Shown: positions 9,482-43,705 of the stretch, in pieces | How positions within the stretch are numbered: position 1 is the stretch's first letter | Layout: the number at the start of each line of letters is the position of its first letter | Sequence record: OX457022 | Length of the DNA: 44,532 nt | Source of the DNA: Escherichia phage vB_EcoP-CC1 | Reading direction: 5' to 3' (one strand) | Notes under the pieces: generated by a model | What the model was told of the DNA's origin: nothing | The model's input: the letters and a program-made list of their open reading frames with translations, nothing else | Database searches by the model: none | Program-made: the position numbers and the translations under genes

Positions 9482-11886
9482 TGGAAGTGCAAGGCTCATT
9501 AGGTCGTCAGATTCAAGGTATTAGCCAACAACCAGCAGCAGTGCGGTTAGATGGGCAATGTACCGATATGGTTAATATGGTTCCAGATGTAGTCAACGGT
9601 ACACAATCTCGCATGGGGAGTGTGCACATTGCAAAGCTACTGGACTCCGGCAGTGACAATATGGCAACACATCACTATCGAAGAGGCGATGGTGATGAGG
9701 AATACTTCTTTGTTTTAAAGAAAGGTAGTTTGCCGGAAATCTTTGACAAGCAAGGCCGTAGGTGTAATGTGACAACAAGGGATGCTCCTTTAGATTATCT
9801 AAAAGAAGTAGTAAATCCACGAGAAGATGTACAGTTTATGACTATTGCAGATGTCACATTTATGCTGAATAGGAGAAAGGTCGTAAAGACAAGGTCTGCA
9901 CGGTCGCCTAAGATCGGTAACACTGCCTTAGTTTTTAGTGCCTATGGTCAGTATGGGACTACATATCGTATAAAGATTAACAACGTTACAGCGGCAGAGT
10001 ACAGAACTGCAAATGGTGGAGAGGCTAGTGACATTAGTACAATCAGAACCGAAAGGATAGCAAGGGAGTTGTATGAGAAACTGCTCGCTTGGGAAGGTGC
10101 TGCCGATTATAAATTCAGTCGTGATGAGAATGTCATAACCATTAGTACTGTGGACGGTTCTACTGATTTTACTGTATCTACTAATGATGGTGCGAAAGGG
10201 CAAGACTTAGTTGCAATTAAATATAAGGTAACGTCTACTGACCTCCTACCTTCTAGAGCACCCGCTGGTTACAAAGTTCAAGTCTGGCCTACAGGAAGTA
10301 AACCAGAGTCCAGATATTGGCTAGAAGCAGAGAAGAAAGAAGGCAGCTTGGTTACTTGGAAAGAAACCATTGCAGCAGATGTCCTTCTAGGTTTTGATAA
10401 AGCCACAATGCCTTACCTTATAGAGCGCACAGATATTATAGATGGGATAGCGCAGTTCACTATAAGGCAGGGAGATTGGGAAGACCGCAAGGTTGGTGAT
10501 GACCTCACTAACCCCATGCCGTCCTTCATTGATAAAGAGAACCCACAAACTATAGGCGGCATGTTTATGGTACAGAATAGGCTCTGTGTAACAGCAGGAG
10601 AGGCTGTCATAGCTACTAGGACTTCTGCGTTCTTTGACTTCTTTCGCTACTCAGCAGTGGCTAGCGTTGCTACTGACCCGTTTGATGTGTTCTCAGATGC
10701 AAGTGAAGTCTATCAGCTAAAACATGCAGTTACTCTGGATGGTGCTACGGTCTTATTTGCTAACAGGTCGCAGTTTACAATCCCTGGAGATAAAGTACTG
10801 GAGAAGTCAAACATCGTATTACAACCAGCGACCACCTTCGAAGTTGACAACAGGGTTCCTCCTGTGGCAACGGGTGAGTCTGTGATGTTTGCTACTAGTG
10901 AGGGTGCTTACTCTGGTATCCGTGAGTTTTACACAGATTCATATAGCGATACGAAGAAGGCACAGGCTATTACTAGTCATGTGAATAAGTTGATACAAGG
11001 TAACATCACTCACATGGTTGCCAGTACCAATATTAACAGGCTACTCGTGATTACAGACAAAGACCCCAATATCGTCTATTGTTATGATTGGTTGTGGCAA
11101 GGGACAGACCGTGTACAATCCGCATGGCATAAGTGGGTGTGGCCTAAAAATACTCTGATACGATCTATGTTCTACTCTTCGGAGGCTTTGTATCTTCTAG
11201 TAGAAAGAGGCAATACGGGTGTCTACTTAGAGGTGATGGATATGGGGGATGCCCTCACATACGGATTGGTTGATAGGATAAGATTAGATAGGCAGGCAGA
11301 GCTTATCTTTACTTATGACTCTTACAACTCCCAGTGGGTATCAAATCCTTTACCTTGGATACCAACAGACACTACATTGCTAGATTGTGTACTGACCACA
11401 GGGTGGCCTGCTTATATTGGTGGGGCTTTTGGTTTCGAATATGATGCAGGTAGCAACACACTACGGACTACATTTGATTTAGCTGATGAGCAATCTAACG
11501 CTATCGTAGTGGTCGGACAGTTGTATCAACAGGAGTTTGAACCTACGCAAGTGGTTATCAGGGATAATCAAGATAGAGTCTCCTATATAGATGTACCTGT
11601 GGTTGGGTTAGTGCACCTTAATCTGGATAAATACCCTGACTTTGAAGTGCACATTAAGAATTTGAAAAGTGGAAAGGTGCGAAAAGCACTAGCCTCTAAT
11701 CGCAAAGGTGGTGCACTGAATAACATCGTGGGATATGTTAAACCTGAAGAGGGTTCTTTTAAGTTCCCCCTTAGGTCGCTAAGTACCGACACGGTTTATA
11801 GGATAGTTGTCAAATCACCTCACACTTTTCAACTAAGAGATATTGAGTGGGAGGGTTCGTATAACCCAACTAAGAGGAGGGTATAA
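9481..11886 (+). CDS. Tail tubular protein B (gp12-like)
   Basis: It is 801 aa, comparable to T7 gp12, and is coupled by a TGATG overlap. Confidence 0.8.
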   Translation: MEVQGSLGRQIQGISQQPAAVRLDGQCTDMVNMVPDVVNGTQSRMGSVHIAKLLDSGSDNMATHHYRRGDGDEEYFFVLKKGSLPEIFDKQGRRCNVTTRDAPLDYLKEVVNPREDVQFMTIADVTFMLNRRKVVKTRSARSPKIGNTALVFSAYGQYGTTYRIKINNVTAAEYRTANGGEASDISTIRTERIARELYEKLLAWEGAADYKFSRDENVITISTVDGSTDFTVSTNDGAKGQDLVAIKYKVTSTDLLPSRAPAGYKVQVWPTGSKPESRYWLEAEKKEGSLVTWKETIAADVLLGFDKATMPYLIERTDIIDGIAQFTIRQGDWEDRKVGDDLTNPMPSFIDKENPQTIGGMFMVQNRLCVTAGEAVIATRTSAFFDFFRYSAVASVATDPFDVFSDASEVYQLKHAVTLDGATVLFANRSQFTIPGDKVLEKSNIVLQPATTFEVDNRVPPVATGESVMFATSEGAYSGIREFYTDSYSDTKKAQAITSHVNKLIQGNITHMVASTNINRLLVITDKDPNIVYCYDWLWQGTDRVQSAWHKWVWPKNTLIRSMFYSSEALYLLVERGNTGVYLEVMDMGDALTYGLVDRIRLDRQAELIFTYDSYNSQWVSNPLPWIPTDTTLLDCVLTTGWPAYIGGAFGFEYDAGSNTLRTTFDLADEQSNAIVVVGQLYQQEFEPTQVVIRDNQDRVSYIDVPVVGLVHLNLDKYPDFEVHIKNLKSGKVRKALASNRKGGALNNIVGYVKPEEGSFKFPLRSLSTDTVYRIVVKSPHTFQLRDIEWEGSYNPTKRRV

Positions 11887-15557: not shown

Positions 15558-15601
15558 TATACTCAAGGTTTGTCTCACATGTGAGACATGCCTTTATGAA
15601 T
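15558..15601 (+). promoter_or_regulatory. RNase III-like hairpin with a palindrome apex (TATACTCAAGGT-tTGTCTCACATGTGAGACAt-GCCTTTATGAAT)
   Basis: It is intergenic. The flanks are identical to those of the hairpin at 41961-41996 and resemble the T7 R0.3 segment CTCAAGGGT...GCCCTTTATGAT (recalled). Confidence 0.55.
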
Positions 15602-24904: not shown

Positions 24905-25037
24905 AGACCAAGAGAGTAAAAGGAATATTATAGGATAATATAGGATTACCTAGGTTATATAGGTGTACCTTAGTATGGGTGTACTCCTGTACACCTATTC
25001 TTACTTGCTATTTACTTATACGTATAAGGAGTATTAG

Positions 25038-30042: not shown

Positions 30043-30058
30043 GTCTAACATGTGAGAC
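30043..30058. repeat. Palindrome family copy, 1 mismatch (GTCTAACATGTGAGAC)
   Basis: Read directly. It is intergenic, 35 bp upstream of the -35 element of the first early promoter. Confidence 0.7.
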
Positions 30059-30820: not shown

Positions 30821-30913
30821 GATGGTAGCTTCTTAGTCTGGATAGGTTAAACCTAGGGGATTCTCTTGAGTCTCCTATAATGTAACCTAACTAACTAAAT
30901 GAGGATTAATAAC

Positions 30914-31273
30914 ATGACTATGTCTAATATGACTTACTCTCAGGTTTACAACACCGCTCATGCTGCATTAGTTGAACGTATCTGGAATGATGCTATTGAT
31001 TGTATCGATAACGCACATGATGCAATCCATGAGGTAGCGGACAGTGCTGTACCAATCTATTATGCTGACATCTTCTCAGTGATGGCGAGTGAAGGTATTG
31101 ATCACTTCTTCGAAGACTCCGGCCTGATGCCAGATACTAAGGATGTAACGGTCGTACTACAAGCCCGTATTTATGAACAACTCACCATTGATTTATGGGA
31201 ACGTGTTCAAGATATGATTGTTGCGTACACCAATTACGCTGAGGATTCAGAAGAAGAAGAAGAGGAAGAATAA
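30914..31273 (+). CDS. ocr: Ocr (T7 gp0.3) homologue: DNA mimic, type I R-M/BREX inhibitor
   Basis: MTMSNMTY...[61 protein letters not shown] is near-identical to recalled T7 Ocr, and it has an acidic tail. Confidence 0.9.
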
Positions 31274-31275
31274 GG

Positions 31276-31389
31276 ATGGAAAAGCAATATAACTTTATCT
31301 TTTCAGACGGTGTGACCCTGAAGTGTTCCCTGCGTTTCGCACAGATTCGCGAGGAAGTGCTAGGAACTACATACAAACTATTTAGCTGA
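31276..31389 (+). CDS. Early 37-aa hypothetical protein
   Basis: The ORF starts 2 nt after the ocr stop. The sequence is MEKQYNFIFSDGVTLKCSLRFAQIREEVLGTTYKLFS. Confidence 0.4.
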   Translation: MEKQYNFIFSDGVTLKCSLRFAQIREEVLGTTYKLFS

Positions 31390-31402
31390 CACTATAAGAG
31401 AG
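31380..31402 (+). promoter_or_regulatory. Phage RNAP promoter variant (ATTTAGCTGACACTATAAGAGAG)
   Basis: It has the SP6-like TGACACTATA core, but A rather than G at the predicted +1 (31397). Confidence 0.55.
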
Positions 31403-31639: not shown

Positions 31640-31703
31640 TGAGCCTATAGCCTACTTAAGTGGGCTATGTGAACACCATTCATTAACTCAAAAGGTGACT
31701 ATT

Positions 31704-32627
31704 ATGACTACTGAAAACACCCTCCTGTCTGTTCGTGAAGCTGCAACCGCTGAGATCAAGCAACACTTAGACAATATCGGCACTTCTTACATCAAAGTTG
31801 GCGCTTGTCTTAATGAGTTACGCGGTGACTTTGAAGGTCAAAAAGACTTTTTGGCTTATGTAGAATCAGAATTTGGAATCAAGAAAGCACAATGTTACAA
31901 GCTGATGAGTGTAGCCCGTGTCTTTGAAGGCGATGATCGCTTTAAAGGCGTGGCGATGCGTGTAATGCTGGCACTTGTTCCTTTCGCTGATGAAAATATC
32001 ATCATGGAGAAAGCCGCAGAACTTGCCGCAGCGGGCAAGCTGGACACTAATGCCGTAAATGCCCTGATTGATCCTAAGAAAGAGACAAAGGCCGAGACGG
32101 TACAATCTAAGGCTGAGGCGGTAAAACCGCAGGAGAATGCGACTGAGGCCGCAGAAACTATGCAAGGACATGCGACCTTTGAGGATTTCATCTTAGAGAA
32201 GGCGAAAGAGGAATTACAAAGTGTGCCGCCAGTAAGTGAGTCGGGTAACGACGAATCCGCACCGTGGGAAGATGAAAGCAAGCCGGAAGCGCCAAAGGCC
32301 GCGCCACTGGATAACACGGCTAACACGGAGAACGCCGCTATGTCTGGCCTACTGGCACAAATTAAGGCACTGACTGAGCAATTACAGGCAGCTAACGACC
32401 GCATCGCCGCCCTAACCAGTGCACGGGAAGGTAAGAAAGCGGCTGCGCCTATGCTTCCGCAGTTTAAATCCTCTTGCTTCTACGCTCGCTTAGGCTTGAG
32501 CGCCGAGGAAGCAACGAAGAAAACAGCAGTGAATAAGGCACGCCGTGAACTGGTTAAACTAGGGTATGGTGAAGGTCATGAGGCATGGCCTTTGATCTCT
32601 GAGGCAGTAGAAGAATTAACTAAGTAA
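31704..32627 (+). CDS. Early protein with a DUF3102-like N-terminal domain
   Basis: AAGGTG precedes the ATG at 31704. IKQHLDNIGTSYIKVGACLNELRGDFEGQKDFLAYVESEFGIKKAQCYKLMSVARVF fits the remembered DUF3102 pattern. The middle is acidic and Ala-rich, and a coiled coil follows. Confidence 0.6.
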   Translation: MTTENTLLSVREAATAEIKQHLDNIGTSYIKVGACLNELRGDFEGQKDFLAYVESEFGIKKAQCYKLMSVARVFEGDDRFKGVAMRVMLALVPFADENIIMEKAAELAAAGKLDTNAVNALIDPKKETKAETVQSKAEAVKPQENATEAAETMQGHATFEDFILEKAKEELQSVPPVSESGNDESAPWEDESKPEAPKAAPLDNTANTENAAMSGLLAQIKALTEQLQAANDRIAALTSAREGKKAAAPMLPQFKSSCFYARLGLSAEEATKKTAVNKARRELVKLGYGEGHEAWPLISEAVEELTK

Positions 32628-35325: not shown

Positions 35326-35357
35326 AGGCCATTCCTTAGGGAGTGGCCTTTTCTTTT
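35326..35357 (+). terminator. Terminator after the RNAP gene (early terminator analogue)
   Basis: The AGGCCA...TGGCCT hairpin is followed by TTTTCTTTT. Confidence 0.6.
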
Positions 35358-35392: not shown

Positions 35393-35408
35393 GTCTCACG
35401 CGTGAGAC
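35393..35408. repeat. Palindrome family copy (GTCTCACGCGTGAGAC)
   Basis: It is a perfect dyad located 2 bp upstream of the promoter at 35411. Confidence 0.9.
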
Positions 35409-35573: not shown

Positions 35574-35589
35574 GTCTCACATGTGAGAC
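35574..35589. repeat. Palindrome family copy (GTCTCACATGTGAGAC)
   Basis: It is a perfect dyad located 4 bp upstream of the promoter at 35594. Confidence 0.9.
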
Positions 35590-35774: not shown

Positions 35775-37763
35775 ATGGCTATTATTCAGAACGTACCGTG
35801 CCCTGCCTGCCAAAAGAATGGACACGATAAATCCGGCAACCATCTTATGATATTTGAGGATGGCGCTGGTTACTGTAACCGTGGTCATTTCCATGATAAT
35901 GGCAAACCTTATTACCATAAGCCAGAGGGCGGCATCGAGATAACCGAATTGCCCATTACTGGCAATATCAAATACACACCTTCTCAATTCAAAGAAATGG
36001 AGAAGGAAGGGAAGATAAGCGACCCTAAGCTACGCGCCATCGCACTTGGTGGTATGCGTATGAAAGACCGTTGGGAGGTCATGAATGAGCAAGAAAGGGC
36101 AGACCAAGAAGCAGAGTGGAAACTTGATGTTGAATGGTTCCTCACGCTTAAGCGTAAGAACCTTGTTTCCCGACACATTCGCGGCGACATTTGCGCATTG
36201 TATGATGTACGTGTCGGACACGATGAAGAGGGTAGAGTCTCGCGGCATTACTATCCACGCTTCGAGAAAGGTGAGCTAGTAGGAGCTAAGTGTCGCACAT
36301 TACCTAAAGACTTTAAGTTTGGTCATTTAGGTAAACTCTTTGGTATGCAAGATCTTTTCGGGATGAATACTTTGTCTCACGTGTTAGACAAGGGAAGACG
36401 AAAGGATTGCTTGCTTATTGTTGGTGGGGAACTGGATGCGCTAGCAGCGCAGCAGATGCTCCTTGATTCTGCCAAGGGTACTAAGTGGGAAGGTCAACCT
36501 TACCATGTATGGTCTGTTAACAAAGGGGAGTCTTGCCTTGAAGAGATTGTGCAGAACCGTGAACACATCGCCCAATTCAAGAAGATTATTTGGGGCTTCG
36601 ATGGGGATGAGGTAGGGCAGAAGCAGAACCAGCAAGCGGCTCGCCTGTTCCCTGGCAAATCTTATATCCTTGAATACCCCTCTGGTTGCAAAGATGCCAA
36701 CAAGGCATTGATGGCTGGTAAAGCCAAAGAATTTGTGGATGCTTGGTTTAATGCAAAGTCATCTGATGAAGTCTTTGGTAGCCAGATTAAATCTATCGCA
36801 TCTCAAAGGGATAAGCTCAAGGCTGCACGTCCAGAACAAGGGCTGTCATGGCCTTGGCCTAAGCTAAACAAGGTAACACTGGGTATCCGTAAGAACCAGC
36901 TTATCATTATAGGTGCAGGCTCTGGTGTTGGTAAGACAGAGTTCCTCCGTGAAGTGGTAAAGCATCTCATCGAAGAACACGGTGAATCTGTAGGTATCAT
37001 TTCTACAGAAGACCCGATGGTCAAAGTGTCCCGTGCTTTTATCGGTAAGTGGATTGATAAGCGTATTGAACTACCGCCAACCAATGACCCGAAAGAAGAT
37101 GGCTACCGTGAGGTGTTCGACTATACAGAGGAAGAGGCTAATGCTGCCATTGATTATGTAGCTGATACAGGGAAGCTGTTTGTAGCTGACCTAGAGGGTG
37201 ACTATTCGATGGAGAAGGTAGAGCAAACTTGCCTAGAGTTTGAGGCTATGGGTATTTCTAATATCATCATTGATAACTTAACGGGGATTAAATTAGATGA
37301 GCGTGCTTTTGGTGGGAAGGTTGGTGCACTTGATGAATGCGTCAAACGAATTGGTACTATCAAAGACCGACATGCGGTTACGATTTTCCTTGTCTCTCAC
37401 CTTACACGCCCTCCGGCAAACCGTACCCAACACGAAGAAGGTGGCGAAGTTATCCTTTCTGACTTCCGAGGCTCAGGCGCTATCGGATTCTGGGCATCTT
37501 ACGCCTTGGGGATTGAGCGTAATACAAGAGCTGAAACGCTTGATGAACGGACTACCACGTACATCTCATGTGTCAAAGACCGCGACCAAGGTATCTACAC
37601 TGGAACCAAGGTCATGCTTAAGGGTGACATTCAAACCGGACGTTTAATGGAACCACAAGCCCGTACTAAGTCATTTGATACAGGTGAAGCAAGGCAACAA
37701 GAAGTACCTGATTTACCGGACACTATAGAAGAGACAACCTTTGACGATGAACAGGAGTTTTGA
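35775..37763 (+). CDS. Primase-helicase (T7 gp4-like)
   Basis: A zinc ribbon (CPACQKNGH...CNRGH) and a TOPRIM region are present. The Walker A motif is GAGSGVGKT and the acidic C-terminus reads ...FDDEQEF. Confidence 0.92.
   Translation: MAIIQNVPCPACQKNGHDKSGNHLMIFEDGAGYCNRGHFHDNGKPYYHKPEGGIEITELPITGNIKYTPSQFKEMEKEGKISDPKLRAIALGGMRMKDRWEVMNEQERADQEAEWKLDVEWFLTLKRKNLVSRHIRGDICALYDVRVGHDEEGRVSRHYYPRFEKGELVGAKCRTLPKDFKFGHLGKLFGMQDLFGMNTLSHVLDKGRRKDCLLIVGGELDALAAQQMLLDSAKGTKWEGQPYHVWSVNKGESCLEEIVQNREHIAQFKKIIWGFDGDEVGQKQNQQAARLFPGKSYILEYPSGCKDANKALMAGKAKEFVDAWFNAKSSDEVFGSQIKSIASQRDKLKAARPEQGLSWPWPKLNKVTLGIRKNQLIIIGAGSGVGKTEFLREVVKHLIEEHGESVGIISTEDPMVKVSRAFIGKWIDKRIELPPTNDPKEDGYREVFDYTEEEANAAIDYVADTGKLFVADLEGDYSMEKVEQTCLEFEAMGISNIIIDNLTGIKLDERAFGGKVGALDECVKRIGTIKDRHAVTIFLVSHLTRPPANRTQHEEGGEVILSDFRGSGAIGFWASYALGIERNTRAETLDERTTTYISCVKDRDQGIYTGTKVMLKGDIQTGRLMEPQARTKSFDTGEARQQEVPDLPDTIEETTFDDEQEF
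36374..36389. repeat. Palindrome family copy, 1 mismatch, intragenic (GTCTCACGTGTTAGAC)
   Basis: Read directly inside the primase-helicase CDS, where it codes LSHVLD. Confidence 0.6.
37711..37733 (+). promoter_or_regulatory. Phage RNAP promoter, ACCGG class, inside the 3' end of primase-helicase (ATTTACCGGACACTATAGAAGAG)
   Basis: It is a full consensus match. Confidence 0.75.
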
Positions 37764-37935: not shown

Positions 37936-37963
37936 GGGCTTGTCTCACATGTGAGACAGGCTC
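37936..37963 (+). promoter_or_regulatory. Extended hairpin with a palindrome apex (GGGCTT-GTCTCACATGTGAGAC-AGGCTC)
   Basis: The core is at 37942-37957. The flanks pair with two G-U wobbles on the + strand RNA only. Confidence 0.6.
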
Positions 37964-39147: not shown

Positions 39148-39177
39148 AAGGGTTGTCTCACGTGTGAGACAGCCTTT
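39148..39177 (+). promoter_or_regulatory. Extended hairpin with a palindrome apex (AAGGGTT-GTCTCACGTGTGAGAC-AGCCTTT)
   Basis: The core is at 39155-39170. The flanks pair with two G-U wobbles and are followed by CATCAT. Confidence 0.6.
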
Positions 39178-43689: not shown

Positions 43690-43705
43690 GTCTCACATGT
43701 GAGAC
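43690..43705. repeat. Palindrome family copy (GTCTCACATGTGAGAC)
   Basis: It is a perfect dyad located 2 nt after the stop codon and 15 bp upstream of the promoter at 43721. Confidence 0.9.

What the first reader, a model, noticed from the sequence alone, without database searches (positions are those of the whole stretch)
31704..32627. DUF3102-like early protein just upstream of the RNAP gene
The N-terminal ~110 aa fit the helix-rich DUF3102 pattern (...IG.SYIKVG..L.EL......Q.DFL.YVESEFG....QCYKLM.VARVF). That pattern is common on plasmids and phages and has no established function. The middle is an acidic, Ala-rich linker, followed by a coiled coil (LAQIKALTEQLQAANDRIAALTS).

The C-terminal segment is FYARLGLSAEEATKKTAVNKARRELVKLGYGEGHE. 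It superficially resembles J-domain helices I-II (Y..LG......A....IKKAYR.L) but lacks HPD. The gene is transcribed both from the host promoters and from the variant phage promoter at 31380. It is the most plausible phage-encoded DNA-binding candidate for the palindrome family, though that link is pure speculation.
Basis: inference. Interest (0 to 1): 0.45.

Follow-up and report, generated by a model that had tools for sequence, protein, structure and literature searches.

The report
Phage early protein that reads palindromes

Summary
The ORF at 31704-32627 is real. It is "gp6" of K1-5/K1E/SP6 (phrog_4571, function unknown), and the window is a Vectrevirus.

- **Palindrome link.** Across 27 representative gp6-carrying phages, the repeated palindrome changes by clade: GTCTCAC, GTCCAAC, GTCTAAC, GTTTCAC or GTCTAGT arms. 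Of about 300 alignment columns, only residue 66 separates arms with C at position 5 (always Lys) from arms with A (Asn/His/Arg). Residue 66 lies in the predicted recognition helix. There were at least three independent co-switches, and further phages examined afterwards kept the Lys66/C5 pairing. T7, which has no gp6, has no such palindrome family.

Seven of the eight window sites are intergenic. Three lie 27-40 bp upstream of phage promoter start sites. I conclude that gp6 is a dimeric, site-specific DNA-binding regulator. What it does to transcription, and what its J-like domain binds, remain inferred. I found no paper describing this.

The parts
31704..32627 (+). gp6 coding sequence (307 aa plus stop)
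   Evidence: ORF. Annotated homologues are K1-5/K1E/SP6 gp6. phrog_4571, E 2.7e-130.
31693..31697 (+). Shine-Dalgarno AGGTG, 6 nt before the ATG
   Evidence: Read from the sequence.
31704..32078 (+). N-terminal helical domain (residues 1-125); DUF3102 superfamily with a ParB/KorB-type DNA-binding fold
31842..31925 (+). Predicted helix-turn-helix (residues 47-74): helix 46-57, turn G58-I-K60, recognition helix 61-74 (KAQCYKLMSVARVF)
   Evidence: Secondary structure of the model. K61, Y65 and L67 are nearly invariant. The HTH assignment itself is an inference from the fold match.
31899..31901 (+). Codon of Lys66, the specificity residue
   Evidence: The only alignment column that separates phages with C at arm position 5 from those with A: K versus N/H/R.
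32079..32315 (+). Acidic, Ala/Pro-rich linker, mostly low-confidence with one short helix at 159-172 (residues 126-204)
   Evidence: pLDDT below 50 for 126-157 and 172-204. pI 4.3. Length and sequence vary among relatives.
32316..32432 (+). Long helix (residues 205-243), probable coiled-coil dimerisation element
   Evidence: Single helix 205-243, with pLDDT 82-93 over residues ~211-240 and lower at both ends. Hydrophobic residues recur along the helix, but the print-out is irregular and I did not test it for heptad periodicity. Weak coiled-coil Pfam hits. Dimerisation is inferred.
32448..32465 (+). P-M-L-P-Q-F motif (residues 249-254), the most conserved stretch of the family
   Evidence: P249, L251 and F254 are invariant; P252 and Q253 are at least 90% conserved. 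Role unknown.
32466..32624 (+). J-like domain (residues 255-307) with GYGEGH in place of the HPD loop
31380..31402 (+). Variant phage-promoter-like element ATTTAGCTGACACTATAAGAGAG upstream of gp5/gp6
   Evidence: Conserved in Vectrevirus and Zindervirus relatives. Function not tested.
30043..30058 (.). Palindrome GTCTAACATGTGAGAC, 34 bp upstream of the -35 hexamer of an early sigma-70-like promoter
   Evidence: No RNA structure beyond shuffles.
35393..35408 (.). Palindrome just after the RNAP gene terminator; its centre is 27.5 bp upstream of a phage promoter start
35574..35589 (.). Palindrome; its centre is 30.5 bp upstream of a phage promoter start
36374..36389 (.). Imperfect palindrome GTCTCACGTGTTAGAC inside the primase gene; the only intragenic copy
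37942..37957 (.). Palindrome 18 nt after a stop codon, at the tip of a 13-bp hairpin
   Evidence: RNA fold -25.2 kcal/mol, z -6.95.
39155..39170 (.). Palindrome 18 nt after a stop codon, at the tip of a long hairpin
   Evidence: z -4.35.
43690..43705 (.). Palindrome; its centre is 40.5 bp upstream of a phage promoter start
15572..15587 (.). Palindrome 18 nt after a stop codon, between the two large ORFs (980 and 1267 aa) that correspond by position to the internal-virion-protein genes of SP6/PM116; extended hairpin
   Evidence: Copies at the syntenic position in SP6 (30569) and PM116 (31971).

Best explanation
gp6 is an early-expressed, probably dimeric, sequence-specific DNA-binding protein.

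**How it binds.** Its N-terminal DUF3102 domain has a ParB/KorB-type helix-turn-helix fold. The recognition helix (residues 61-74) reads the 8-nt half-site GTCTCACR of the phage's own 16-bp palindromes, and Lys66 specifies the C:G pair at arm position 5. Two DNA-binding domains hang on long flexible acidic linkers. A coiled coil (residues 205-243) holds them together, which would explain why both 16-bp and 17-bp palindromes are tolerated.

**What it most likely does (inferred).** The sites lie at module boundaries: next to the early host-type promoter, directly upstream of three phage middle promoters, and just after gene ends. The protein is therefore most likely a transcription regulator or insulator that modulates initiation or read-through at these points after early expression.

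**The C-terminal domain (inferred).** This domain is a degenerate J domain without HPD. It cannot act as a canonical Hsp70 ATPase activator. It is most likely a protein-protein interaction module that brings a still unknown partner to the bound sites, or holds that partner there.

**Shown here:** the domain homologies, the fold, the absence of HPD, the site distribution and the covariation.

**Inferred:** physical binding, dimerisation, the effect on transcription and the partner.
For: **Architecture.**

**Every gp6-type phage family examined has its own repeated GT-initiated palindrome.**
- GTCTCAC with helix AQxYKLM: Vectrevirus, Erwinia, Vibrio, Pseudomonas and Aeromonas phages.
- GTCCAAC with AQCYNLM: Klebsiella, Proteus, Lelliottia and Pectobacterium phages.
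- GTCCAAC/GTCTAAC with AQCYHLM: SP6.
- GTCTAAC with AQAYNLV: a distant clade.
- GTTTCAC with AQASKLM.
- GTCTAGT with AWAYRLM.

**Covariation.**
- Residue 66 is the only one of about 300 columns with no residue shared between the C5 and A5 groups: K versus N/H/R in 27 representatives.
- A tree built with the recognition helix masked places Vectrevirus (K, C5) inside the N/A5 clade. It places the N/A5 pair L012/L019 next to the K/C5 locus L011. That makes at least three independent co-switches.
- Lys pairing with G:C and Asn pairing with A:T matches the usual amino-acid/base preferences (established knowledge).

**Phages examined afterwards.**
- MJG: predicted and found GTCTCAC, 7 arm counts.
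- phiY2: C5 kept.
- Tola (W63, K66): GTCTC[TC]T, so C5 is kept and position 7 changes along with W63.
- Marinomonas CPG1g: a diverged helix goes with a different palindrome, GTTCGAGATCTCGAAC (three exact copies plus one with a single change).

**Controls.**
- T7 has no repeated palindrome.
- In viral contigs, 10 of 12 multi-copy loci for GTCTCACNNGTGAGAC come from gp6-type phages.

**DNA rather than RNA.**
- Four window sites show no RNA structure beyond shuffles, yet keep the 16-mer, three exactly at every specified base and 30043 with one substitution.
- Half-site position 8 is a purine in all sites listed for the five complete genomes, whether or not the two sides are complementary.
- 37 of the 54 arm differences in imperfect sites would be non-wobble mismatches in a hairpin.

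**Placement.** Seven of eight sites are intergenic, against 8% non-coding sequence.
Against: - No binding experiment exists, and I found no literature on it.
- Covariation is correlative. Clades share ancestry, and another phage protein could in principle track the sites as well.
- Three window sites sit at the tips of long stable hairpins exactly 18 nt after stop codons.
- Asymmetric sites in SP6 (6 of its 7 asymmetric sites; 2 more of the 9 are symmetric) and in Tola (4 of 5) are oriented so that the + strand RNA keeps a U.G wobble. This points to an RNA-level role that the DNA model does not explain.
- A few gp6 homologues showed no clear palindrome family in the DNA available: L014 none, L020 and L060 only two copies each.
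- The distance from site to promoter varies (27.5, 30.5 and 40.5 bp), and only 3 of 14 promoter cores have a site. Any transcriptional effect is therefore unproven.
Confidence: 0.7

Rival explanations
1. gp6 is mainly a host-chaperone effector. The J-like domain engages DnaK (or DnaJ, CbpA or DjlA) to sequester, inhibit or redirect the Hsp70 system early in infection. The N-terminal domain is a scaffold or a non-specific DNA tether.
For: - The C-terminal domain is homologous to J domains.
- Helix II keeps its basic character (KKTAVNKARRELVK), and the domain has pI 9.2.
- A phage-encoded J-domain protein that acts on DnaK and sigma-32 is known: Rki of RB43 (PMC3486835).
- The gene is expressed early.
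Against: - HPD is absent in 61 of 61 family members. His-to-Gln in HPD alone abolishes functional J-Hsp70 interaction (PMC3486835).
- This reading does not explain the residue-66/arm-base covariation or the co-occurrence with palindromes.
- It is compatible with the best explanation as a second function.
Confidence: 0.12
2. The palindromes act as RNA (or single-stranded DNA) hairpins, for example as processing, stability or termination elements, and gp6 recognises the hairpin rather than duplex DNA.
For: - Three window sites lie exactly 18 nt after stop codons, inside 13-bp hairpins with z scores of -2 to -7.
- Annotators of PM116 marked one site as part of a rho-independent terminator (9815-9858), and AS51's terminator annotation (24969-25015) overlaps the first bases of another.
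- Strand-biased U.G wobble asymmetry occurs in SP6 and Tola sites.
Against: - The four bare sites (30043, 35393, 35574, 43690) fold no better than shuffles.
- Site 30043 lies upstream of the early promoters and is unlikely to be transcribed.
- Many imperfect sites carry A.G, C.A or C.T mismatches.
- A ParB/KorB-type HTH is a duplex-DNA reader (established knowledge).
- Rfam finds nothing.
Confidence: 0.1
3. gp6 and the palindromes are unrelated. The palindromes are read by another factor, or are purely structural. The covariation is a by-product of shared ancestry.
For: - Covariation was counted on clade representatives that are not fully independent.
- Some gp6 homologues lack an obvious palindrome family.
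Against: - Only one column in about 300 partitions the two arm classes, and it lies in the predicted recognition helix.
- The pattern cuts across the tree at least three times.
- It held in further phages.
- The residue-base pairs follow known recognition chemistry.
- T7 lacks both gp6 and the palindromes.
Confidence: 0.08

Closest known systems
KorB of IncP plasmid RK2, and the DNA-binding domains of the ParB family (Spo0J, SopB, P1 ParB, VirB)
   Same: - The cognate sites are palindromes of 13-17 bp, repeated about 8-12 times on the protein's own replicon, some next to promoters and some far from them (KorB OB sites; established knowledge).
- One gp6 clade uses the half-site GTTTCAC. From memory, this equals the chromosomal parS half-site.
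   Different: - gp6 has no ParB/Srx-type N-terminal CTPase domain, and no sequence-level similarity to ParB or KorB.
- Dimerisation would be through a coiled coil after a long acidic linker, not through the ParB C-terminal domain.
- It carries a J-like domain.
- It is encoded by a strictly lytic T7-type phage with no partition function.
DUF3102 (Pfam PF11300), an uncharacterised family of plasmids and phages
   Same: - The N-terminal domains of 27 of 69 family representatives match the Pfam model, profile positions about 10-121 of 129.
- Two relatives carry the label in precomputed annotation.
- The predicted structure matches viral proteins annotated as DUF3102.
   Different: - The window protein does not reach the Pfam threshold, or give any hit at all.
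- This branch adds a coiled coil and a J-like domain.
- No function was known for DUF3102: only three papers in the library mention it, none in title or abstract, and I opened none of them.
J-domain proteins (DnaJ/Hsp40) and HPD-less J-like proteins such as Tim16/Pam16
   Same: - The helix I-II-III arrangement, the LGL motif of helix I and the basic helix II are shared.
- Profile hits go almost exclusively to J domains.
   Different: - There is no HPD. The loop reads GYGEGH here, and YTAATNPEA or similar in distant relatives.
- Helix IV is missing because the protein ends after helix III.
- Canonical stimulation of the Hsp70 ATPase is therefore not expected.
Rki (ORF 057w) of T4-like phage RB43, the first functional phage-encoded J-domain protein
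   Same: It is a phage-encoded protein with a J-type domain (PMC3486835).
   Different: Rki has a functional HPD-containing J domain that can replace that of DnaJ, and an H-to-Q change in HPD inactivates it. gp6 lacks HPD and carries a DNA-binding domain.

Membership tests
DUF3102 (PF11300) | The protein scores above the Pfam gathering cut-off (24.4 bits) | tested here: not met
   No PF11300 hit for the window protein even at E up to 10.
DUF3102 (PF11300) | Homology of the domain at family/profile and fold level | tested here: met
   27 of 69 representatives hit PF11300, best E 1.5e-7, always in the N-terminal domain. Precomputed PF11300 label on P0260 and P0211. Foldseek hits to viral DUF3102 proteins at E 8e-4 and 0.02.
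J-domain (PF00226, DnaJ/Hsp40 co-chaperones) | J-domain fold: helix I, then an antiparallel hairpin of helices II and III | tested here: met
   [not shown]
J-domain (PF00226, DnaJ/Hsp40 co-chaperones) | HPD tripeptide in the loop between helices II and III | tested here: not met
   GYGEGH in the window protein. 0 of 61 family C-domains contain HPD; the closest is NPD in P0142.
J-domain (PF00226, DnaJ/Hsp40 co-chaperones) | Score above the Pfam gathering cut-off (27.8 bits) | tested here: not met
   No hit for the window protein. The best relative scores 26.0 bits.
J-domain (PF00226, DnaJ/Hsp40 co-chaperones) | Stimulates the ATPase of a partner Hsp70 | not testable with these tools
   Needs a biochemical assay. 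Not expected without HPD (PMC3486835).
ParB/KorB family | HTH-containing helical DNA-binding domain | tested here: met
   [not shown]
ParB/KorB family | N-terminal ParB/Srx-like (CTP-binding) domain | tested here: not met
   No such Pfam hit in the window protein, and none among the 25 most frequent families listed for the 69 relatives. The protein starts directly with the helical domain.
ParB/KorB family | Cognate palindromic sites repeated on its own replicon | tested here: met
   Eight sites in the window. Clade-specific palindromes covary with recognition-helix residue 66. Physical binding was not tested.
ParB/KorB family | Detectable sequence homology to ParB or KorB | tested here: not met
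   The N-domain profile against all PDB sequences gives nothing below E 0.17 and no ParB or KorB hit.

The most novel reading that the evidence does not exclude
gp6 defines a new class of phage regulator. A KorB-like operator-binding module tethers an HPD-less J-like domain to about eight defined sites on a T7-type phage genome. There the J-like domain recruits, or blocks, a host or phage machine: DnaK/DnaJ, host RNA polymerase or the single-subunit phage RNA polymerase. This would add site-specific, protein-mediated control to a transcription programme usually explained by promoter strength and polymerase entry alone. It would also give the first function to the DUF3102 family of plasmids and phages.
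Probability: 0.25. Interest if true: 0.8.

Novelty: new variant of a known kind. Interest (0 to 1): 0.62.

Why it matters
- **An open question about a familiar phage group.** SP6/K1-5-type phages supply a widely used RNA polymerase, and K1-5/K1E-type phages are therapy candidates. Yet the conserved early gene next to the polymerase gene has had no function since the genomes were published.
- **A testable operator-regulator pair.** The analysis pairs this gene with the phage's unexplained palindromes. It predicts the contact down to one residue and one base pair (Lys66 with C:G at arm position 5, Asn66 with A:T), which a single EMSA swap experiment can test.
- **A working function for DUF3102.** It proposes sequence-specific DNA binding with a ParB/KorB-type fold for a domain of unknown function found on plasmids and phages.
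- **An unusual fusion.** It flags a DNA-binding domain joined to a degenerate J domain.
- **Practical use.** If gp6 modulates T7-type promoters or read-through, it could serve as an orthogonal control element for SP6-polymerase expression systems.

Tried and rejected
- **Direct Pfam scan of the window protein:** only weak coiled-coil noise.
- **phmmer against PDB sequences:** nothing.
- **Single-sequence AlphaFold model:** unusable, pLDDT 49.
- **N-domain profile against PDB sequences:** no relative.
- **Foldseek against the PDB:** no significant match.
- **afdb50 library:** not available.
- **NCBIfam scan of 69 relatives:** no family hit by more than one of the 69 members, the singletons including weak J-family matches (ActJ, DjlA, DnaJ).
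- **Rfam on the whole window:** no family.
- **Literature:**
  - DUF3102 is mentioned in three papers, never in title or abstract.
  - No paper contains the palindrome sequences.
  - Two genome papers list gp6 as unknown. One of them also wrongly tables it as a possible gene 0.3 analogue.
  - The SP6 genome paper (PMC374404) is not held.
  - The "J-like domain" in a Druantia preprint refers to baseplate protein J and is irrelevant.
- **Protein searches:** the first two word-index searches were swamped by near-identical Vectrevirus proteins. Diversity came from the representative search and from a distant-subfamily profile.
- **Rejected, purely RNA-structural palindromes:** four sites fold no better than shuffles, and many imperfect sites break pairing.
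- **Rejected, gp6 as a canonical J-domain co-chaperone:** HPD is absent in the whole family.
- **Rejected, database labels "endolysin" or "andolysin" on some homologues:** nothing found here supports them.
Full report
**1. What is there**

The window is a complete, circularly permuted genome of a Vectrevirus (K1-5/K1E-like, Autographiviridae, Molineuxvirinae). The 1.6 kb around the finding is 99.8-100% identical to Escherichia phages vB_EcoP_R4596 and vB_EcoP-CC2.

The finding's coordinates delimit a real gene. It runs from ATG 31704 to the stop at 32625-32627 and encodes 307 aa. An AGGTG ribosome-binding site lies 6 nt upstream. Annotated relatives use the same start.

The gene is "gp6" of K1-5, K1E and SP6. 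In these phages it lies between an Ocr-like gene plus a few small ORFs and the single-subunit RNA polymerase gene. In some distant relatives one small ORF or a kinase gene intervenes. It belongs to phrog_4571, function unknown.

tblastn finds it in 213 phage records. In 211 of them at least 80% of the query is covered. Hosts include Escherichia, Klebsiella, Salmonella, Proteus, Erwinia, Pectobacterium, Vibrio, Pseudomonas, Aeromonas, Marinomonas and Shewanella.

An exhaustive search of 1.84 billion cluster representatives found only 131 clusters. The family is therefore small. The homologues traced to named phage records or long contigs all come from T7-type podophages or ~40-47-kb contigs of that size.

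**2. Domain architecture**

The window protein has no Pfam hit of its own. I therefore scanned 69 diverse family representatives individually.
- 27 hit PF11300 (DUF3102), best E 1.5e-7.
- 6 hit PF00226 (DnaJ), best E 1e-5.
- In the proteins whose coordinates were printed, the DUF3102 hits lie in the conserved N-terminal domain (seven proteins). The DnaJ hits lie in the last ~50 residues, covering profile positions 6-57 of 63 (three proteins).

A profile of the C-terminal domain (61 sequences) was searched against all PDB chain sequences. It returned J-domains almost exclusively. By name, 21 of the 22 best hits (E 1.2e-4 to 0.1) are J domains, and the remaining one is CbpA. They align through helices I-III.

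An AlphaFold model made with a 51-sequence alignment is confident for three parts:
- residues 10-125, six helices, pLDDT about 90;
- a single long helix at 205-243;
- residues 250-307, pLDDT above 90.

Residues 126-157 and 172-204 are low-confidence. The linker as a whole (126-204) is acidic, with pI 4.3.

- ParB 5.9, Spo0J 5.5, SopB 5.4, P1 ParB 5.1, VirB 4.8.

Foldseek against the PDB was not significant, although VirB and KorB ranked first and fourth. Foldseek against viral models hit proteins annotated as DUF3102, at E 8e-4 and 0.02.

HPD is absent. The window has GYGEGH at that place, distant relatives have YTAATNPEA-like loops, and 0 of 61 family members have HPD.

The most conserved stretch of the whole protein is P-x-L-P-Q-F, just before the J-like domain. 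Its role is unknown.

**3. The palindrome link**

Seven of the eight copies are intergenic, in a genome that is about 8% non-coding.

I collected about 60 loci and genomes that carry gp6 homologues. In each I looked for repeated inverted repeats. Most have a family of 16- or 17-bp palindromes starting with GT. The arm sequence differs by clade and tracks the predicted recognition helix of gp6 (window residues 61-70, KAQCYKLMSV).

| Palindrome arm | Recognition helix | Phages |
|---|---|---|
| GTCTCAC | AQxYKLM | Vectrevirus, Erwinia phiEa100, Vibrio AS51, Pseudomonas Njord group, two metagenomic clades |
| GTCCAAC | AQCYNLM, or SQCFNLM in Proteus PM116 | Klebsiella, Proteus, Lelliottia and Pectobacterium phages |
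| mixed GTCCAAC/GTCTAAC | AQCYHLM | SP6 |
| GTCTAAC | AQAYNLV | a distant clade |
| GTTTCAC | AQASKLM | loci L054, L055 |
| GTCTAGT | AWAYRLM | ECBP5-like phages |

I then aligned 27 clade representatives over the full protein. Residue 66 is the only column with no residue shared between the two groups. Phages with C at arm position 5 always have Lys. Phages with A at position 5 have Asn, His or Arg.

A neighbour-joining tree built with the helix masked shows that this is not simply inheritance:
- The K/C5 Vectrevirus sits inside the N/A5 enteric Molineuxvirinae.
- The N/A5 pair L012/L019 is sister to the K/C5 locus L011.
- Together these require at least three independent co-switches.

Lys with a G:C pair and Asn with an A:T pair are the textbook preferences. 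Residue 66 sits at a position of the helix-turn-helix motif that usually contacts bases. Both of these points rest on established knowledge, and the second is inference for this protein.

Four further phages were examined after the rule was formulated:

| Phage | Helix | Palindrome found | Outcome |
|---|---|---|---|
| Aeromonas MJG | KKAQAYKLM | GTCTCAC (7 arm counts) | as predicted |
| Shewanella phiY2 | GKAQAYKLM | GTCTCA[CT] | C5 kept |
| Aeromonas Tola | KKAWAFKLM | GTCTC[TC]T | C5 kept; position 7 changes along with W63 |
| Marinomonas CPG1g | strongly diverged (GKSSVSEWC) | GTTCGAGATCTCGAAC, three exact copies plus one with a single change | different helix, different palindrome |

Controls:
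- T7 lacks gp6 and has no repeated palindrome beyond what shuffles give.
- I scanned IMG/VR for GTCTCACNNGTGAGAC. Among the first 80 loci, 12 had two or more sites, and 10 of these come from gp6-type phages. None of the 68 single-site loci encodes gp6 within the stretch fetched, although several are fragments of gp6-type phage genomes; the rest are consistent with chance matches in so large a collection (my estimate).

**4. DNA or RNA?**

The window sites fall into two contexts.

Bare palindromes:
- Three have their centres 27.5, 30.5 and 40.5 bp upstream of phage-promoter start sites (35393, 35574, 43690).
- One lies 34 bp upstream of the -35 hexamer of an early sigma-70-type promoter (30043).
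- As RNA these fold no better than shuffled sequence, with z between +0.7 and -1.4.

Palindromes in hairpins:
- Three lie exactly 18 nt after a stop codon, at the tip of 12-13-bp stems (15572, 37942, 39155). Their z scores are -2 to -7.

Several observations favour duplex-DNA half-site recognition:
- The bare sites conserve the exact sequence.
- Position 8 of each half-site is a purine in all sites listed for the five complete genomes, whether or not the two sides are complementary.
- In imperfect sites there are many non-wobble mismatches: A.G 14, C.A 9, C.T 8.

An RNA-level role is not excluded for the hairpin-embedded sites. SP6 (6 of its 7 asymmetric sites, out of 9 sites) and Tola (4 of 5 sites) are asymmetric in the orientation that keeps a U.G wobble in the + strand RNA. 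I cannot explain this strand bias with the DNA model.

**5. Mechanism**

*Shown here:*
- homology of both domains, and the fold;
- absence of HPD;
- site distribution;
- residue/base covariation.

*Inferred:*
- gp6 dimerises through the helix at 205-243.
- Its two HTH domains, on flexible acidic linkers, bind the two half-sites. This flexibility would explain why both 16- and 17-bp spacings are tolerated.
- Because gp6 is made early and its sites lie at promoter-proximal and gene-end positions, it most likely modulates initiation or read-through at module boundaries.

I put the DNA-binding assignment at about 0.7-0.8. I put any specific regulatory outcome well below 0.5.

**6. Comparison with known systems, and novelty**

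gp6 works like a KorB- or ParB-type operator-binding protein, but it is not a member of that family. It has no ParB/Srx N-terminal domain and no sequence homology.

It belongs to the DUF3102 superfamily at profile and fold level, but lies below Pfam's threshold.

Its C-domain is a J-like domain, not a J-domain. The defining HPD was tested and is absent.

I found no publication that characterises gp6, the palindromes or DUF3102. Genome papers list gp6 as unknown, and one wrongly tables it as a possible gene 0.3 analogue.

The combination of a DUF3102/KorB-like HTH, a coiled coil and an HPD-less J-like domain, paired with a co-evolving operator family in lytic T7-type phages, is a new variant of a known kind of system: site-specific HTH regulators.

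**7. Verdict**

Noticed in passing
window 15572, 37942, 39155: Three palindromes begin exactly 18 nt after the stop codon of the preceding ORF. They are flanked by AAGG..TT / A..CCTT extensions that give 12-13-bp stems with G.U wobbles, followed by T-rich tails. They look like transcript 3'-end, processing or attenuation hairpins built around the operator sequence.
   Followed up: partly
L007 (SP6) sites 6264, 7071, 8547, 9383, 14255, 30569; L190 (Aeromonas phage Tola) sites 1261, 8449, 8639, 9134: Asymmetric palindromes (GTCTAAC..GTTGGAC, GTCTCTT..AGGAGAC) almost always lie in the orientation that gives a U.G wobble in the + strand transcript, rather than a C.A mismatch. Pure duplex-DNA recognition does not explain this strand bias.
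   Followed up: partly
window 31380-31402: The variant phage-promoter-like element has A instead of G after TATA (TGACACTATAAGAG). It is conserved at the same place upstream of gp5/gp6 in Vectrevirus and Zindervirus relatives, including SP6. It is absent in the Lelliottia, Pectobacterium, Proteus and Erwinia phages checked.
   Followed up: partly
window 30899-31273: A 124-aa acidic ORF ending in a run of Glu ([10 protein letters not shown]) corresponds to the gene annotated as Ocr-like anti-restriction protein in relatives.
   Followed up: no
P0129-P0235 (distant gp6 homologues); L011, L012, L019: Many distant family members carry an extra 70-150-residue N-terminal extension with a conserved L-K..K and T-K pattern. 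The window protein lacks it. Its function is unknown.
   Followed up: no
L054, L055 (metagenomic phage contigs): In one clade the palindrome arm is GTTTCAC and helix residue 65 is Ser instead of Tyr. From memory, GTTTCAC is the half-site of bacterial chromosomal parS (TGTTNCACGTGAAACA). This is a curious echo of the ParB-like fold.
   Followed up: no
L188 (Marinomonas phage CPG1g) 361, 8843, 11265, 14792: This phage's gp6 has a strongly diverged recognition helix (GKSSVSEWCKAA), and the genome carries a different repeated 16-bp palindrome, GTTCGAGATCTCGAAC.
   Followed up: partly
GenBank records of homologues: Some homologues of gp6 are labelled "endolysin" or "andolysin". The neighbouring polymerase is labelled "N4-like RNA polymerase" in one record. 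One paper tables gp6 as a possible T7 gene 0.3 analogue. Nothing found here supports these labels for gp6.
   Followed up: partly
window 35326-35349: A strong terminator-like hairpin with a T-run lies directly after the RNAP gene. Within 300 bp it is followed by two palindrome-plus-phage-promoter units (35393/35428 and 35574/35612). This arrangement recalls the phi1.1A/phi1.1B promoter pair after gene 1 of T7, which lies at the primary replication origin (the origin is from established knowledge).
   Followed up: no
L139 2433-2512 and L143 5168, 8376 (IMG/VR contigs): Two viral contigs not identified as gp6-type carry two copies each of GTCTCACNNGTGAGAC. No gp6-like ORF was found in the 10-15 kb available.
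   Followed up: partly
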